Shown piece by piece: positions 35,601-57,725 of a DNA stretch of 64,000 nt. Made by a program: the position numbers and the translations under genes. The notes beneath the pieces are model-generated. The model made no database searches. It saw nothing but the letters and a program-made list of their open reading frames with translations, and was not told the DNA's origin. Origin of the DNA: Escherichia coli (GTDB lineage: Bacteria; Pseudomonadota; Gammaproteobacteria; Enterobacterales; Enterobacteriaceae); NCBI RefSeq assembly GCF_011045215.1, contig NZ_CP049201.1, one strand, 5' to 3'. Each line of letters opens with the position of its first letter. Position 1 is the first letter of the stretch.

Positions 35601-38600
35601 TCATTTTCCTAATTCTCCAGCTAAAAGTTCAGCCTGCTTCAAAACAGTCTCTGTGGCGAGCAATGACATATCAGGCGGATAACCATATTTTTTGAGCAGA
35701 CGTTTTACCACCACGCGAATTTTTGCTCTTGCTGCTTCTTTCACTGTCCAGTCAAGACTGACATTGTTGCGGATAGCCTCCGTAAGTACGACTGCCAGTT
35801 CTCGTAGTTTTTCCTTTTCCATTAACTCGCGAGCACTGTCGTTATCTGCAACAGCAGAATAGAAGGCATATTCATAAGCGCTGAGGTTTAACTGGCTGGC
35901 AAGGCTGTCAGATTCCTGGATAGTCTTGGCAAGCTTGATTAGCTCATCAATTACCTCCGCTGCTGTCAGTACCTTGTTCTGGTAGCCATTGATTGCAGAG
36001 GTCAGCATATCAATCAGTTTTTTGCCTTGGGTGATACTTTGATTCGAGCGAACTTTAATCTCGTCAGAAAGCAGTTTTTTAAGCGTTTCCAAAGCAATAT
36101 TTCTGTGTTGGTAATCCTTCATTTCCTGAAGGAATTCTTCAGAAAGAACGGAAATATCTGGCTTTTGTATCCCAGCAGCGTCAAAAATATCAACAACTTT
36201 ATCGGTAACCAGAGCCTGATCGATAGTCTGTTTTACCCGAACTTCCAGACTGTCATTGTGTTCTTCTTCTGATCCGTCTGAGTTTTCAGTAAATTTATTC
36301 AGTCTGGCTTTTACTGCCTGGAAGAATGCTACTTCGGGTGCCGCTTCCATTGCTTTATCGTGCGGTGTCGCCAATGCAAATGCCTGCGACAAGGCTGCAA
36401 CCGCAGCCAGGAAACGCATTTTACCTTTACCGTTATCCAGCCCTAAAATATGGTTTTCTGATTCAAGAATAATTGTCAGGCGTTGTGAAGTAGTTGCGGC
36501 AAAGTAAGCTTTGTAATCGTAGCCATGCATCATGCCTTCCAGGATTTCCAGCTTTTCCTGCATGAGCGTTACAGCTTCTTCCTGAACCTCAGCAGGATCT
36601 CCACGTCCACCTGCATCAGAGTAAAAGGAGAGGGCTTCTTTTAAATCAGAGGCAATGCCCAGATAGTCAACAACCAGACCGCCTATCTTATCTTTATACA
36701 CACGGTTCACACGGGCAATTGCCTGCATGAGGTTGTGGCCTTTCATTGGTTTGTCGATATACAGCGTATGCATGCTGGGAGCGTCGAAGCCGGTTAACCA
36801 CATATCACGCACTATCACCAGTTTCAGCTTGTCGTCGTCATCCTTCATACGATTAGCCAGAACCTGACGTTCTTTTTTTGTGGTGTGGTGTTTAGCGATT
36901 TCTGGTCCGTCAGCAGCAGAAGAGGTCATGACGACTTTAATCACGCCATCATTTAGATTATCGCTGTGCCATTCAGGTTTTAACTCTATGATTTCTTTAT
37001 AAAGTTCAGCAGCAATACGACGGGACATGGTGACAATCATGCCCTTGCCATGATCGGCATTAGATTTTAAGCGCTGTTCAAAGTGCTGAACCATATCCGC
37101 CGCAATAGCTTTAATACGTTTTGAACTGCCAATCAAACCTTCGATTCTGGCCCATTTAGACCGTTCTTTCTGGGTAAGCGTCAGCTCGTCTTCGTTAAAC
37201 TCATCGTCGAAGTCTTCAATTAGCTGGCGACCTTCGTCACTGATGGCAATTTTGGCAAGACGGCTTTCATAGAAGATACGCACGGTTGCACCGTCTTCTA
37301 CGGCCTGTGAGATATCGTAGATATCAACGTAGTTACCAAAAACAGCAGGTGTGTTTACGTCCGTTTTTTCTATGGGGGTTCCGGTAAAGCCAAGATAGGT
37401 AGCATTGGGCAAGGCATCACGCATATATTTGGCAAAGCCGTAAACGGTGCGTTTACCTGTTACGTTGCCTTCGCTGTCTTTCACGTCAACTTCTTTGGCG
37501 CTGAAACCGTATTGTGAACGGTGGGCTTCATCAGCGATAACGACAATATTGGTTCTGTCTGACAACAACTCATAGATATTGCTGCCATCATTAGGCTGGA
37601 ATTTTTGAATAGTGGTAAACACCACACCACCAGAGGCTACGCGCAAATATTCTTTGAGTTCTTCCCGGTTGTCGGCCTGTTTTGGTGTCTGACGAAGTAG
37701 CTAGGTCGCGGAAGAGAACGTACCGAATAGCTGATCATCCAAATCGTTACGGTCAGTAATCACAACAACTGTCGGATTATCCAGCGCCAGCACAATTTTC
37801 CCGGTATAAAACACCATCGAAAGCGATTTACCGGAACCCTGAGTATGCCAGACTACGCCCGCTTTGCGATCTCCGGTTTTTTGCGCATTAACAAGATCTT
37901 TACTGTTACGTCCCTGCTGGCGCAGTGCCACTTCGGCAGAGGGGGAGTCCGCATTCACCGCTGAGGCACGAATAGTGGAAAGAACTGCTGCATTGACCGC
38001 GTAGTACTGGTGATAAGCCGCCATTTTTTTAACAGTACGGATACTGATAATCCCTTTGCTGTCTTCATGTTTGCTGGCCTCAAACACGATAAAGTGGCGG
38101 ATCATATCCAGCAGCGTTACAGGATTAAGCAACCCCTGTAATAAAACTTCAAGCTGTGGTTGGGTACTGGTGGCTTGCGTTTTACCGTTAGCAGTTTTCC
38201 ACGTCATATAACGACTGAAATCGGCAGAAACCGTCCCCGCTTTGGCTTCCAGCCCGTCAGATATCACATTAAAAGCATTGTAGTTAAACAGACCGGGGAT
38301 TTGGTTCTGATAGGTTTTAATCTGATTATAGGCACCTGTTACCGTAGCATTTTCGTCAGCGGCATTTTTAAGTTCGATAACGACTAATGGCAGGCCGTTG
38401 ATGAATAAAATAAGATCAGGTCGGCGGGTATGATTGCCTTCTTTGATGGTGAGCTGATTAATGACCAGAAATTCATTATTAGTGGGATCGTTAAAGTCGA
38501 TCAGGCAGGCCAGCTCTCCTTGTGTATTACCATCCTTACTGACTTCGATATTGATCCCTTCGGTCAACAGGCGATGAAAGGCCAGATTGTTTGCCATTAG

Positions 38601-42070: not shown

Positions 42071-42515
42071 ATTAGCCGTGTCCGTTTTAGCAGGGACAAC
42101 TCCAGTATTCAAAAAAGCTTTCTTAGTGCATATGCATGAGGTGAATAGATGTACAGGCTATGACAAACCATAGTTGTAATTTTTAATGTTTAAAATTCTC
42201 CGTTACAGTAGGACACTCCTTGTACATTAAATTCCATCTAAGGTTGAATTTTTAATTTAATAAGGTCGCAATCTAAAATGATGTGTATGGGGTTATTTGT
42301 AAGATGATTTTTTATGTTTGATAGTGGTGATTAAGGGAGCGGGTAATGTTTGTCTATTCAAAAATATAGAGATTCAAGGTTGGTAGCAGTTTGGCTTCTT
42401 TTCTAACCGAAGGGCAGAAAAGCAAGGGGAACTCGAAGAAGCAAGCGCAGCGGCTTCGCAGAGTTAGCCCTTGCTTCTCTTATAATTGGCATTATTCATT
42501 CAAGAACAATAGGAT

Positions 42516-53417: not shown

Positions 53418-54044
<627 letters not shown>

Positions 54045-54065
54045 TTTCTGTTTTCGTAATAATTC

Positions 54066-54100
54066 ACGGCCCTGCATGCGAATGTCGGGCCGTTTTCGTT
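54066..54100. terminator. Hairpin between convergent grpE and yfjD
   Basis: ACGGCCC-N14-GGGCCGT followed by TTTTCGTT. Confidence 0.5.
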
Positions 54101-55385
54101 ACTCCGCCACACTCTCGCGCAGCGGTTTCACAGGAAAAACTTTTACCTGCTTAATCATATTGTCCTGTACGTCGAGAATATCGATATCGTACTCGCCAAT
54201 ACGCACGCGGGTGCCTGCGACAGGAATCTCTTCCAGTGCCTCAAGAATGACGCCATTAACCGTGCGGGCATCATCTTCCGGTAGATGCCAGTTAAAGGCT
54301 TTGTTGATTTCCCGCACGTTGGCAGTGCCATCAATAATCACCGAACCGTCGTTTTGCGGCGTGACCTCTTCGGCAAGTGTTGGCGACATCGACGTGGTGA
54401 AATCACCAACTATCTCTTCCAGAATATCTTCAACCGTCACCAGCCCCTGAATGTCTCCATACTCGTTGACGACCAGGCCGACTTTCTTTTTGTTGCGCTG
54501 AAACTTAACCAACTGCGTGCTGAGGGGCGTACCTTCCGGGACAAAATAGATCTCGTCCGCGGCGCGCAGCATGGTTTCTTTGGTGAACTCTTTTTTCTCC
54601 GACATCAACCGCCAGGCTTCACGTACTCGCAGCATACTGATGGCGTCGTCCAGCGAATCACGGTAGAGCACGATGCGCCCGTGAGGTGAGTGGGAGAGTT
54701 GGCGCAGAATCGATTTCCAGTCATCGTTGATATCAATACCGATAATTTCACTGCGCGGCACCATGATGTCATCAACGGTCATTTTTTCCAGATCGAGCAC
54801 CGACAGCAGCATATCCTGATTGCGACGGGAAATTTGTGAGCGCGATTCATGCACGATAGTGCGCAACTCTTCTTTGCTCAAAGAGCCGCTGACCACGATA
54901 TCGGTTTTGATGCCCATCATGCGCATTAACATGCGGGTGATAGCGTTCAGCAACCAGACCAGCGGCATCATCAAAATTTGCAGCGGTGCTAACAGAATAC
55001 TACTCGGATAAGCGACTTTTTCCGGGTATAGCGCAGCGATAGTTTTCGGCAACACTTCGGCAAAAACCAGCACCACAAAGGTCAGCACACCAGTCGCAAT
55101 TGCCACGCCCGCATCGCCGTACAAACGCATCCCAACAATAGTGCCGAGCGCGGAGGCAAGAATATTGACCAGGTTATTGCCGATTAACACCAGGCTTATC
55201 AGCCGGTCTGGCTTACGCAGCAATTTTTCGACGCGTTTGGCCGAGCGATTACCCTGTTTCGCCATATGTCGCAGACGATAGCGGTTGAGGGTCATCATTC
55301 CGGTTTCGGACCCGGAGAAATAGGCTGAAATGACCACCATGATGATCAGAATAATGATCAACGTAGTAGTAGAAATGTGTTCCAG
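54099..55385 (-). CDS. yfjD: CNNM/CorC-family inner-membrane protein YfjD (UPF0053); start codon uncertain (CTG at 55385 or TTG at 55361)
   Basis: DUF21 TM domain plus CBS pair plus CorC/HlyC C-terminal domain; AAGGAG lies 7 nt upstream of an in-frame CTG; no in-frame ATG or GTG upstream of the TTG used by the ORF track. Confidence 0.8.
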   Translation of the reverse strand: MEHISTTTLIIILIIMVVISAYFSGSETGMMTLNRYRLRHMAKQGNRSAKRVEKLLRKPDRLISLVLIGNNLVNILASALGTIVGMRLYGDAGVAIATGVLTFVVLVFAEVLPKTIAALYPEKVAYPSSILLAPLQILMMPLVWLLNAITRMLMRMMGIKTDIVVSGSLSKEELRTIVHESRSQISRRNQDMLLSVLDLEKMTVDDIMVPRSEIIGIDINDDWKSILRQLSHSPHGRIVLYRDSLDDAISMLRVREAWRLMSEKKEFTKETMLRAADEIYFVPEGTPLSTQLVKFQRNKKKVGLVVNEYGDIQGLVTVEDILEEIVGDFTTSMSPTLAEEVTPQNDGSVIIDGTANVREINKAFNWHLPEDDARTVNGVILEALEEIPVAGTRVRIGEYDIDILDVQDNMIKQVKVFPVKPLRESVAE

Positions 55386-55405
55386 GGGAAACTCCTTTTC
55401 TGGGT

Positions 55406-56197
55406 TTAGCTGATTAACTGCTGGACAATTCGGCTGCCGAAGTAGGCCAGTGTCAGAATGACTGCACCCGCAACGTTAAACCAGACGACGCGGCGTCCAC
55501 GCCATCCTTCATGATAATGTCCCCACAGCAGCACAATATAGACAAACCACGCCACGATAGAGAGCACAGCCTTGTCGATATTTTCCATGCTAAATAAGTT
55601 GTGCTTGTAGAACAGGCCAGTGCAAAGCGTGAGCGTTAGCAGCACTACGCCAATCTGCGTGATGTGGAACATTTTACGCTCGATACTCATCAATGGCGGC
55701 ATTTCCTGGTTAAACGCCAGCTTCTTGTTCTTCAGTTGGTAATCAATCCACGCCAGTTGCAGCGCGTACAGGGCGGCGATAATTAGCGTGGCATAGGAAA
55801 AGAGCGATAAGCCAATGTGCACCAGCATCCTAGGCGTAGCTTCCAGATGGGTGATGTATTCATTGGGCATGAAGGTTGCCAGCGCCAGGTTGATAAGCGC
55901 AAAGGCATAGACAATGGGTAGCAGCAACCAGCCACGATTGCGAGAAGCCACAATGGTCATTACCGTACAGATCATCAAACTGACCAATGAACCAACGTTC
56001 AGCAGGCTGAGGTTTTGTCCGCTATCACCGTCGGGCAGGATGCGGGCTTCCAGAGCGATTGCGTGGCAGACCAGCGCAATGACCGCAGAAATAATAGCCA
56101 TGCGCCGCCAGCCGCCGTTTTTTTGCAGCAGACCGGGAACAATCAGCGCAAGACTGACGGAGTAGGCGACAAGCGCGAGCAGAGCAAAAACGGGCAT
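55406..56197 (-). CDS. ypjD: Inner-membrane protein YpjD (cytochrome c assembly-like)
   Basis: ORF 55406-56272; likely start MPVFALLALVAYS (56197, ~263 aa); multi-TM. Confidence 0.8.
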   Translation of the reverse strand: MPVFALLALVAYSVSLALIVPGLLQKNGGWRRMAIISAVIALVCHAIALEARILPDGDSGQNLSLLNVGSLVSLMICTVMTIVASRNRGWLLLPIVYAFALINLALATFMPNEYITHLEATPRMLVHIGLSLFSYATLIIAALYALQLAWIDYQLKNKKLAFNQEMPPLMSIERKMFHITQIGVVLLTLTLCTGLFYKHNLFSMENIDKAVLSIVAWFVYIVLLWGHYHEGWRGRRVVWFNVAGAVILTLAYFGSRIVQQLIS

Positions 56198-56363
56198 AGT
56201 AATGTCGACAGTTTGAGCAATAAGAAAGAGAAGCAGTATAGCGTCAGGTGAACGCTGCTCCAACCGTTGCATAACAACAAAGACGCCTTCATGTTATACT
56301 GCGGCAAAATACTGATGATGTGTCGCGATTGCGGCCAACCGTTTCCACCCCAGGCGAGAGACA

Positions 56364-57725
56364 ATGTTTGATAATTTAACCGATCGTTTGTCGCGCACGC
56401 TGCGCAATATCAGTGGCCGTGGACGCCTCACTGAAGACAACGTAAAAGATACGCTGCGCGAAGTGCGCATGGCGCTGCTGGAGGCGGACGTCGCTCTGCC
56501 GGTAGTGCGTGAGTTTATCAATCGCGTAAAAGAGAAAGCGGTTGGTCATGAAGTTAATAAGAGCCTGACGCCGGGGCAGGAGTTCGTCAAAATCGTCCGT
56601 AACGAACTGGTTGCGGCGATGGGCGAAGAGAACCAGACCCTGAACCTGGCTGCGCAACCGCCTGCGGTCGTACTGATGGCGGGCCTGCAAGGTGCCGGTA
56701 AAACAACCAGCGTTGGTAAACTCGGTAAGTTCCTGCGCGAGAAGCACAAGAAGAAAGTGCTGGTGGTTTCTGCCGACGTTTATCGCCCGGCGGCAATCAA
56801 ACAGCTTGAGACGCTGGCAGAGCAGGTGGGCGTTGATTTCTTCCCTTCTGATGTTGGTCAGAAGCCGGTAGATATCGTTAACGCGGCGCTGAAAGAAGCC
56901 AAACTGAAATTCTACGACGTGCTGCTGGTGGATACCGCTGGTCGTCTGCACGTTGACGAAGCGATGATGGACGAGATCAAACAAGTCCATGCGTCGATTA
57001 ACCCGGTTGAAACCCTGTTTGTGGTTGACGCCATGACCGGTCAGGATGCGGCCAATACGGCAAAAGCATTCAATGAAGCGTTACCGCTTACCGGCGTAGT
57101 GTTGACCAAAGTGGACGGCGATGCCCGCGGCGGTGCGGCGCTCTCTATTCGTCACATCACTGGCAAACCGATCAAGTTCCTCGGTGTTGGCGAGAAAACT
57201 GAGGCGCTGGAGCCGTTCCATCCGGACCGCATCGCGTCGCGTATTCTCGGCATGGGCGACGTACTGTCGCTGATCGAAGATATCGAAAGCAAAGTTGACC
57301 GCGCGCAGGCAGAGAAATTAGCCAGCAAGCTGAAAAAAGGTGACGGCTTCGATCTCAACGACTTTCTTGAGCAGCTGCGCCAGATGAAAAATATGGGCGG
57401 CATGGCTAGCCTGATGGGCAAGCTGCCGGGCATGGGGCAGATCCCGGATAACGTCAAGTCACAGATGGACGATAAAGTGCTGGTGCGTATGGAAGCCATC
57501 ATCAACTCGATGACGATGAAAGAGCGCGCTAAGCCAGAAATCATCAAAGGTTCGCGTAAACGCCGTATTGCTGCCGGTTGCGGTATGCAGGTGCAGGACG
57601 TTAACCGTCTTCTGAAACAGTTCGACGACATGCAGCGCATGATGAAGAAAATGAAGAAGGGCGGAATGGCGAAGATGATGAGAAGCCTGAAGGGGATGAT
57701 GCCGCCGGGATTTCCTGGTCGCTAA
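56364..57725 (+). CDS. ffh: Signal recognition particle protein Ffh
   Basis: 453-aa ORF with GTPase motifs (GLQGAGKTT, DTAGR) and Met-rich C-terminal M domain. Confidence 0.95.
   Translation: MFDNLTDRLSRTLRNISGRGRLTEDNVKDTLREVRMALLEADVALPVVREFINRVKEKAVGHEVNKSLTPGQEFVKIVRNELVAAMGEENQTLNLAAQPPAVVLMAGLQGAGKTTSVGKLGKFLREKHKKKVLVVSADVYRPAAIKQLETLAEQVGVDFFPSDVGQKPVDIVNAALKEAKLKFYDVLLVDTAGRLHVDEAMMDEIKQVHASINPVETLFVVDAMTGQDAANTAKAFNEALPLTGVVLTKVDGDARGGAALSIRHITGKPIKFLGVGEKTEALEPFHPDRIASRILGMGDVLSLIEDIESKVDRAQAEKLASKLKKGDGFDLNDFLEQLRQMKNMGGMASLMGKLPGMGQIPDNVKSQMDDKVLVRMEAIINSMTMKERAKPEIIKGSRKRRIAAGCGMQVQDVNRLLKQFDDMQRMMKKMKKGGMAKMMRSLKGMMPPGFPGR

What the first reader, a model, noticed from the sequence alone, without database searches (positions are those of the whole stretch)
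55359..55400. yfjD has no in-frame ATG/GTG start: AAGGAG Shine-Dalgarno followed by CTG
The only strong ribosome-binding site (AAGGAG) lies 7 nt upstream of an in-frame CTG at 55383-55385; the ORF track start is a TTG eight codons downstream with no SD. Starting at the CTG gives 428 aa, which I recall (unverified) as the K-12 YfjD length. Either this strain has a start-codon substitution or the gene uses a rare non-canonical initiator.
Basis: partly seen in the sequence, partly recalled or inferred. Interest (0 to 1): 0.3.

Follow-up and report, generated by a model that had tools for sequence, protein, structure and literature searches.

The report
Known CTG start codon of yfjD
The E. coli membrane-transporter gene yfjD (corB) really does begin with the rare start codon CTG behind a strong ribosome-binding site, but this is already annotated in the K-12 reference genome and was reported as confirmed by mutagenesis in 2013, so the finding is correct but ordinary.

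Summary
On the minus strand, AAGGAG (55397-55392) is followed by a 6-nt spacer and an in-frame CTG (55385-55383). The first in-frame TTG is codon 9 (55361-55359), and a CTG start gives 428 aa.

It is not strain-specific. K-12 MG1655 has the identical sequence, and both the K-12 reference and NCBI's PGAP pipeline start the CDS at this CTG. At least 5411 of 5425 complete E. coli genomes carry the SD-CTG core, and none has ATG or TTG in the same 34-nt context.

[quoted passage not shown] It calls this the second such case in K-12, after hda.

My comparison of 79 Enterobacteriaceae species supports this independently:
- The codon is always NTG (CTG 36, TTG 30, GTG 13, ATG 0), with T and G invariant.
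- Three-base periodicity begins immediately after it.
- Codon 9 is an ordinary Leu codon.

One possibly new detail is that the full AAGGAG occurs in 31 of 36 CTG species and 0 of 43 TTG/GTG species. This suggests that Shine-Dalgarno strength compensates for the weak CUG initiator.

Verdict: already known, low interest.

The parts
54099..55385 (-). yfjD (corB) coding sequence, 428 codons plus stop, starting at CTG
   Evidence: Translation. 427/428 identical to K-12 YfjD. Annotated with these limits in K-12 and in the 100%-identical strain NZ_OZ282453.1. Pfam domains CNNM 11-184, CBS and CorC_HlyC.
55383..55385 (-). CTG initiation codon of yfjD
   Evidence: It is the annotated first codon in K-12 and PGAP records. 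The literature reports mutagenesis confirmation (PMC3531124). In 79 species the codon is NTG, with T and G invariant and N = C36/T30/G13. Codon periodicity starts right after it.
55392..55397 (-). Shine-Dalgarno sequence AAGGAG, 6 nt upstream of the CTG
   Evidence: Sequence. The AAGGA core is conserved across 79 species at the same distance. Predicted duplex with the anti-SD is about -8.2 kcal/mol.
55386..55391 (-). Spacer TTTCCC between SD and start codon (7 nt, TTTCCCC, in O157:H7-type genomes)
55406..55408 (-). Stop codon (TAA) of the upstream gene ypjD, 20 nt before the yfjD CTG. The two genes are probably co-transcribed and possibly translationally coupled (inference).
   Evidence: No promoter-like or terminator-like site lies between the genes.
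55359..55361 (-). TTG at codon 9, the mechanical ORF-finder start and the older annotation. Rejected as the start.
   Evidence: No SD precedes it. In 79 species, codon 9 is CTG 49, CTC 11, CTA 7, TTG 7, CTT 4 and TTA 1, the pattern of an ordinary Leu codon. Mutating it had no effect on expression according to PMC3531124.
55338..55340 (-). In-frame ATG at codon 16, an internal Met. Used as the start by gene callers that do not allow CTG. Rejected as the main start.
   Evidence: It would remove residues 11-15 of the CNNM domain match. Codons 2-15 show coding-type conservation.

Best explanation
yfjD (corB) encodes a CNNM/CorB-type inner-membrane transporter, and its translation starts at the near-cognate codon CUG at 55385-55383.

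Proposed mechanism:
1. The 30S subunit is positioned by pairing of the strong AAGGAG Shine-Dalgarno sequence with the 16S rRNA 3' end. The 6-nt spacer places the CUG in the P site.
2. fMet-tRNAfMet (anticodon CAU) reads CUG with a first-position mismatch, so the protein begins with Met (MEHISTTTL..., 428 aa).
3. CUG is a poor initiator, giving about 1-2% of AUG in reporter assays. The gene is therefore probably translated at a low rate.
4. That low rate is partly offset by the strong SD, and possibly by ribosomes arriving from ypjD, which stops 20 nt upstream.

Shown here: the sequence, the annotation, conservation within E. coli, and the comparative start-codon signature. Taken from the literature: mutagenesis and fusion confirmation, cited there as unpublished data. 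Inferred: low expression as the selected outcome, SD compensation, and coupling to ypjD.
For: - K-12 has the identical sequence, and b4461 is annotated from the CTG. PGAP does the same in the 100%-match strain and in the O157:H7, LF82 and ChlosBP variants.
- The 34-mer spanning SD and CTG is present in 5080 genomes, and its +1C variant in 331, out of 5425 E. coli genomes. ATG and TTG versions give no match.
- In 79 Enterobacteriaceae species the first codon is CTG 36, TTG 30, GTG 13. Its 2nd and 3rd bases are invariant while its 1st base varies, which is the reverse of a sense Leu codon.
- Column entropy for codons 2-8 is 0.33/0.10/5.69 bits by codon position. The 21 nt upstream give 9.0/9.6/9.6. 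Translation must therefore begin at or before codon 2.
- In 75 of 79 species no in-frame ATG/GTG/TTG lies between the upstream stop and this codon.
- The Pfam CNNM domain match starts at residue 11.
- CUG initiates at 1-2% of AUG (bioRxiv 10.1101/063800).
Against: - The only experimental confirmation I could find is cited as unpublished results inside a database paper.
- I found no ribosome-profiling or N-terminal proteomics record for yfjD in the texts and supplements available.
- The motif alone is not rarer than chance in the window.
- Minor additional initiation at TTG-9 or ATG-16 is not excluded by sequence analysis.
Confidence: 0.92

Rival explanations
1. The true start is the TTG at codon 9 (55361-55359), as the ORF finder and the older K-12 annotation had it. 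On this reading the CTG with its SD is a coincidence in the leader.
For: It is the first canonical start codon in the ORF. The AAGGAG-N-CTG motif alone can occur by chance. The MazF-regulon table apparently still measured distance to this start.
Against: - No SD precedes it.
- Codon 9 is CTC, CTT, CTA or TTA in 23 of 79 species, and these codons cannot initiate.
- Codons 2-8 show strong third-position-only variation and encode an almost invariant EHISTTT.
- Mutating TTG-9 had no effect on expression (PMC3531124).
Confidence: 0.02
2. The main start is the in-frame ATG at codon 16 (55340-55338), giving a 413-aa protein. This is what gene callers restricted to ATG/GTG/TTG produce in species where codon 9 is not TTG.
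For: ATG-16 and GTG-17 are invariant in 79 of 79 species. Public databases hold 409-423-aa models starting MVVISAYF.
Against: - No SD-like sequence lies upstream (CTGATCATC).
- It would remove the first 5 residues of the CNNM domain match and part of the first hydrophobic segment.
- Codons 2-15 evolve like coding sequence.
- The curated annotation and the reported mutagenesis both point to the CTG.
Confidence: 0.03
3. The CTG is a strain-specific substitution of an ancestral ATG, or a sequencing error in this window.
For: None beyond the rarity of CTG starts.
Against: - The sequence is identical in K-12 MG1655 and in at least 5411 of 5425 complete E. coli genomes.
- No E. coli genome has ATG or TTG in the same 34-nt context.
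- CTG is also present in E. albertii, Salmonella, Enterobacter, Raoultella, Kosakonia and others, and none of 79 species has ATG.
Confidence: 0.005
4. Initiation at the CTG depends mainly on translational coupling. Ribosomes terminating at the ypjD stop 20 nt upstream would re-initiate at the nearby SD-CTG, rather than new 30S subunits binding there.
For: The gap between the ypjD TAA and the CTG is only 20 nt and contains the SD. No promoter-like or terminator-like site lies between the genes. The region has no notable RNA structure (z = -0.64).
Against: - In several species with a CTG start (Raoultella, Intestinirhabdus, one Citrobacter amalonaticus) the 45 nt shown upstream of the start do not look like the ypjD 3' end seen in the other species, so a close ypjD stop may not be universal. 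I did not map ypjD in those loci.
- The strong SD and its co-variation with the start codon argue for SD-driven initiation.
- This rival complements the main explanation rather than excluding it.
Confidence: 0.1

Closest known systems
E. coli K-12 yfjD (b4461, YP_026171.3) as annotated in NC_000913.3 and described in EcoGene 3.0 (PMC3531124)
   Same: It is the same gene. The 5' region is identical (SD, spacer, CTG, TTG-9) and the protein is 427/428 identical. The CTG start is already annotated and reported as experimentally confirmed.
   Different: Only one amino-acid difference, F130I. Nothing differs in the initiation region.
hda of E. coli K-12, the first chromosomal gene shown to initiate with CTG (as cited in PMC3531124)
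   Same: Both are chromosomal genes whose translation starts at a CUG near-cognate codon read by initiator tRNA. In both cases earlier annotations placed the start elsewhere.
   Different: It is an unrelated protein (a DnaA-inactivation factor versus a membrane transporter). I did not examine the hda initiation region here, so any similarity in SD strength is untested.
infC and pcnB AUU start codons (from my own knowledge of E. coli translation, not tested here)
   Same: They are non-canonical, IF3-discriminated initiation codons that keep translation low.
   Different: For infC the weak codon is part of a demonstrated autoregulatory loop through IF3. No regulatory loop is known or shown for yfjD.
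CNNM/CorB Mg2+ transporter family (archaeal and bacterial CorB structures, PMC8242095; Salmonella CorB, PMC12421838)
   Same: Same domain architecture: CNNM/DUF21 transmembrane domain, CBS pair and CorC_HlyC domain.
   Different: Transport activity of E. coli YfjD was not examined here. In Salmonella, corB deletion gave no phenotype in the assays of PMC12421838.

Membership tests
Bacterial genes with a CUG (near-cognate) initiation codon | In-frame CTG at the 5' end of the ORF, preceded by a Shine-Dalgarno sequence at a functional distance (about 5-9 nt) | tested here: met
   AAGGAG at 55397-55392, a 6-nt spacer, then CTG at 55385-55383. Anti-SD duplex is about -8.2 kcal/mol.
Bacterial genes with a CUG (near-cognate) initiation codon | No canonical ATG/GTG/TTG start available in frame between the upstream stop and the CTG | tested here: met
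   The ORF finder's first canonical start is TTG at codon 9. In 75 of 79 related species there is no upstream in-frame canonical start.
Bacterial genes with a CUG (near-cognate) initiation codon | Sequence downstream of the CTG, before any canonical start, evolves as coding sequence, and the codon itself behaves as a start codon across species | tested here: met
   Entropy for codons 2-8 is 0.33/0.10/5.69 bits by codon position, against no periodicity upstream. The codon is NTG in 79 of 79 species, with T and G invariant and N = C/T/G.
Bacterial genes with a CUG (near-cognate) initiation codon | Experimental proof: loss of product when the CTG is mutated, or an N-terminal sequence or ribosome footprint at the CTG | not testable with these tools
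   [quoted passage not shown] I found no Ribo-seq or N-terminomics entry for yfjD.
CNNM/CorB (HlyC/CorC family) transporters | [quoted passage not shown] | tested here: met
   Pfam hits: PF01595 residues 11-184 (E 1.3e-53), PF00571 (E 9.9e-9), PF03471 residues 344-418 (E 2.3e-19).
CNNM/CorB (HlyC/CorC family) transporters | Divalent-cation (Mg2+/Co2+) efflux activity | not testable with these tools
   Known only from the literature on homologues (PMC8242095, PMC12421838).

The most novel reading that the evidence does not exclude
The start of corB/yfjD may be kept deliberately weak throughout Enterobacteriaceae, with the Shine-Dalgarno sequence co-evolving with the start codon to hold initiation within a narrow range.

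- The start codon is never ATG in 79 species. It is CTG, TTG or GTG.
- The full AAGGAG accompanies CTG in 31 of 36 species and TTG/GTG in 0 of 43.
- 74 of 79 tips are concordant. No run out of 20,000 simulations of an independently evolving trait on the gene tree came close (maximum 65).

If true, this would be a clean natural example of compensatory evolution between start-codon strength and SD strength in a single gene.

A still more speculative add-on concerns MazF. The ACACA at codons 2-4 has been reported as a MazF cleavage site. Cleavage there would detach the SD and CTG, possibly switching the mRNA to TTG-9 or inactivating it under stress.
Probability: 0.35. Interest if true: 0.3.

Novelty: already known. 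Interest (0 to 1): 0.1.

Why it matters
For the scan this is a correct catch of a rare feature. CTG starts are among the rarest annotated initiators in E. coli, and EcoGene calls yfjD the second confirmed K-12 case, after hda. It is nevertheless already in the reference annotation and in the literature, so it opens no new question.

Its practical value is as a caution. ORF finders and gene callers restricted to ATG/GTG/TTG mis-start this gene, giving 420-aa or 413-aa models, and such truncated models are present in public protein collections. At least one published table appears to measure a feature relative to the obsolete TTG start.

The only piece that might be worth a short follow-up is the tight co-variation of CTG with a full AAGGAG SD across genera.

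Tried and rejected
- **Independent experimental evidence for the start.** The main texts of the Ribo-RET preprint (10.1101/520783) and the TRAINSPOTTER N-terminomics paper (PMC13245402) do not mention yfjD. The TRAINSPOTTER supplements held as text have no yfjD, b4461 or P37908 entry. No supplements are held for the Ribo-RET preprint or for PMC7043885.
- **RNA element or structure around the start.** There is no Rfam match at E <= 1 in 53900-56500. The 80-nt initiation region folds no better than shuffles (z = -0.64). I rejected a hairpin or riboswitch explanation.
- **Internal promoter or terminator between ypjD and yfjD.** None was found by consensus scan.
- **Homologues beyond Enterobacteriaceae.** I wanted to ask whether the weak start is older than the family. 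The genome scan kept only the 80 best loci (all >= 86% identity), and the protein search listed only the top 120 (also >= 86%). Start codons outside the family remain unexamined.
- **Other AAGGAG-N5-8-CTG matches in the window.** The match at 38506-38521 is internal to a 379-aa ORF. The match at 42206-42221 lies where no ORF of at least 80 aa exists. Neither looks like a second CTG start.
- **The remaining 14 genomes.** Of the 5425 E. coli genomes, 14 match neither 34-mer. I did not inspect them individually.

Full report
**What is there.**
The feature lies on the minus strand. The upstream gene ypjD (a cytochrome c assembly family protein) ends with TAA at 55408-55406. Twenty bases later an in-frame CTG (55385-55383) opens the reading frame that runs to the stop at 54099. 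Inside that 20-nt gap sits AAGGAG (55397-55392), separated from the CTG by the 6-nt spacer TTTCCC.

The mechanical ORF list starts the frame at TTG 55361-55359, eight codons further on (420 aa). Nothing resembling a Shine-Dalgarno sequence precedes this TTG. Counting from the CTG gives 1287 nt, or 428 aa.

First, an in-frame ATG (codon 16, 55340-55338) and GTG (codon 17) do exist further inside the ORF. Second, the bare motif AAGGAG-N5-8-CTG is not rarer than chance in 64 kb: 3 found against 1.17 expected. Position and conservation carry the argument, not motif rarity.

**It is the reference state, not a strain peculiarity.**
A 401-nt query around the site matches 5425 of 5426 complete E. coli genomes. 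In K-12 MG1655 the sequence from the ypjD stop to beyond codon 20 is identical. The reference annotation of yfjD (b4461, 2748774..2750060, 1287 nt) begins exactly at this CTG.

PGAP annotations begin there too. This holds in the strain with a 100% match to the window and in three variant strains. The window's protein differs from K-12 YfjD at one residue, F130I.

A 34-mer spanning the SD, the CTG and six further codons has an exact core match in 5080 genomes. A variant with one extra C in the spacer, the O157:H7 type, matches 331 more. Together these make 5411 of 5425. The same 34-mer with ATG or TTG in place of CTG matches nothing. The remaining 14 genomes were not inspected.

**It is already published.**
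The EcoGene 3.0 paper (PMC3531124) has a section headed 'CTG start codon verification'. It reports three things:
[quoted passage not shown] '

The data are cited there as unpublished (D. Dague and K.E. Rudd), so primary data are not available to me. This is the main weakness of the experimental record. I found no ribosome-profiling or N-terminomics entry for yfjD in the texts I could reach.

**Independent comparative evidence.**
I fetched the orthologous locus from 80 species-level genomes of Enterobacteriaceae. The 5' end was available in 79 of them, and I tabulated the initiation region. Four results follow.

1. The first codon is CTG in 36 species, TTG in 30 and GTG in 13. It is never ATG.
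2. Its second and third bases (T, G) are invariant in 79 of 79 species, while its first base varies among C, T and G. A sense Leu codon behaves the other way round. Codon 9, a real Leu, is CTG 49, CTC 11, CTA 7, TTG 7, CTT 4 and TTA 1.
3. Three-base periodicity switches on immediately after the NTG. Summed column entropy over codons 2-8 is 0.33, 0.10 and 5.69 bits for codon positions 1, 2 and 3. These codons encode an almost invariant EHISTTT. The 21 nt upstream give 9.0, 9.6 and 9.6 bits.
4. In 75 of 79 species there is no in-frame ATG/GTG/TTG between the upstream stop and this codon.

Translation must therefore start at or before codon 2, and the NTG is the only candidate. TTG-9 cannot be the conserved start, because in 23 species that codon cannot initiate at all. 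ATG-16 is invariant, but it lies inside the Pfam CNNM domain match, which begins at residue 11, and has no SD. The 409-423-aa database models beginning MVVISAYF are artefacts of gene callers that do not allow CTG.

**How it most likely works.**
The strong SD pairs with the 3' end of 16S rRNA; the predicted duplex is about -8.2 kcal/mol. With the 6-nt spacer this places the CUG in the P site. Initiator tRNA reads CUG with a first-position mismatch, which is established knowledge of near-cognate initiation, so the protein begins with Met.

In reporter assays CUG gives 1-2% of the AUG level (bioRxiv 10.1101/063800). The inferred consequence is low synthesis of this membrane transporter.

No RNA family, unusual structure, promoter-like site or terminator-like site lies between ypjD and yfjD. 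Co-transcription with ypjD is therefore likely, and some translational coupling is possible. This is inference.

The protein has the CNNM/DUF21 + CBS + CorC_HlyC architecture of CorB-type Mg2+/Co2+ transporters (PMC8242095, PMC12421838).

**The one possibly new detail.**
Across the 79 species, the full hexamer AAGGAG occurs in 31 of 36 CTG-start loci and in 0 of 43 TTG/GTG-start loci. The latter carry AAGGAA, AAGGAC or AAGGAT, or a weaker site with no AGGA core (3 loci). Mean anti-SD duplex energy is -8.1 kcal/mol for CTG loci, -6.1 for GTG and -5.9 for TTG.

On a neighbour-joining tree of the gene, parsimony needs about 9 changes of CTG versus other and 8 changes of AAGGAG versus other, but only 11 changes of the joint state. 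Most changes therefore fall on the same branches. Examples are Raoultella against the Klebsiella oxytoca group, Citrobacter amalonaticus against the C. freundii complex, and Kosakonia against Trabulsiella.

I simulated an independent binary trait with 6-12 changes on that tree, 20,000 runs for each number of changes. No run reached the observed 74 of 79 concordant tips; the maximum was 65.

This fits compensatory tuning, a stronger SD where the start codon is weakest. Four caveats apply:
- The tree is a gene tree.
- The two sites are only 7 nt apart, so a single recombination event would move them together.
- Atlantibacter and two other lineages have CTG without AAGGAG.
- General start-codon/SD compensation has been discussed before (my recollection, not checked here).

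**Verdict.**
The 'strain-specific substitution' reading is wrong. The feature is already annotated in the K-12 reference and reported as experimentally confirmed in 2013. Interest is low. The residual value is the annotation caution and the SD/start-codon co-variation.

Noticed in passing
window 55386-55397 (-); loci L003-L082: Across 79 Enterobacteriaceae species, the full SD hexamer AAGGAG occurs in 31 of 36 loci with a CTG start and in 0 of 43 loci with TTG or GTG. No species has ATG. The association far exceeds simulations of independent evolution on the gene tree.
   Followed up: partly
L083 (E. coli O157:H7 FRIK2069), equivalent to window 55386-55391: 331 E. coli genomes, including O157:H7 strains, carry one extra C in the SD-CTG spacer (TTTCCCC, 7 nt instead of 6). 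PGAP still starts the CDS at the CTG.
   Followed up: partly
L085 (E. coli ChlosBP-23-1), equivalent to window 55400-55406: This strain has a 9-nt insertion, apparently a duplication, in the ypjD-yfjD intergenic gap just upstream of the SD. LF82 has a single substitution there, AAACCC to AACCCC.
   Followed up: no
window 55376-55380 (-), ACACA in codons 2-4 of yfjD: The MazF-regulon paper (PMC5001579, Table 1) lists yfjD with a cleaved ACA 17 nt from the start. No ACA lies within about 35 nt upstream of the CTG. The ACACA at 55380-55376 is 17 nt from the old TTG-9 start, so that table seems to use the obsolete start. The cleavage site would then be inside the coding sequence, downstream of the SD and the CTG.
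   Followed up: partly
window 55406-56272 (-), ypjD: The longest ORF for ypjD is 288 aa from the ATG at 56272. K-12 and PGAP annotate 792 nt (263 aa), starting 25 codons downstream at MPVFALL, about 56197. The Pfam cytochrome c assembly match covers residues 61-286 of the long form.
   Followed up: no
public protein collection, P0104, P0012, P0007: Many automatically called YfjD homologues in public collections are truncated at Met16 (409-423 aa, starting MVVISAYF). Their gene callers do not allow CTG starts. NCBI models start MEHISTTTL.
   Followed up: yes
window 42206-42221 (-): A second AAGGAG-N7-CTG match lies in a stretch (42100-42300) with no ORF of at least 80 aa on either strand. I did not determine what occupies this region.
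   Followed up: no
window 54996-54998 (-), residue 130 of YfjD: The window's YfjD differs from K-12 at one residue, Phe130 to Ile, within the CNNM transmembrane domain. Most relatives listed have Phe, Leu or Val there.
   Followed up: no
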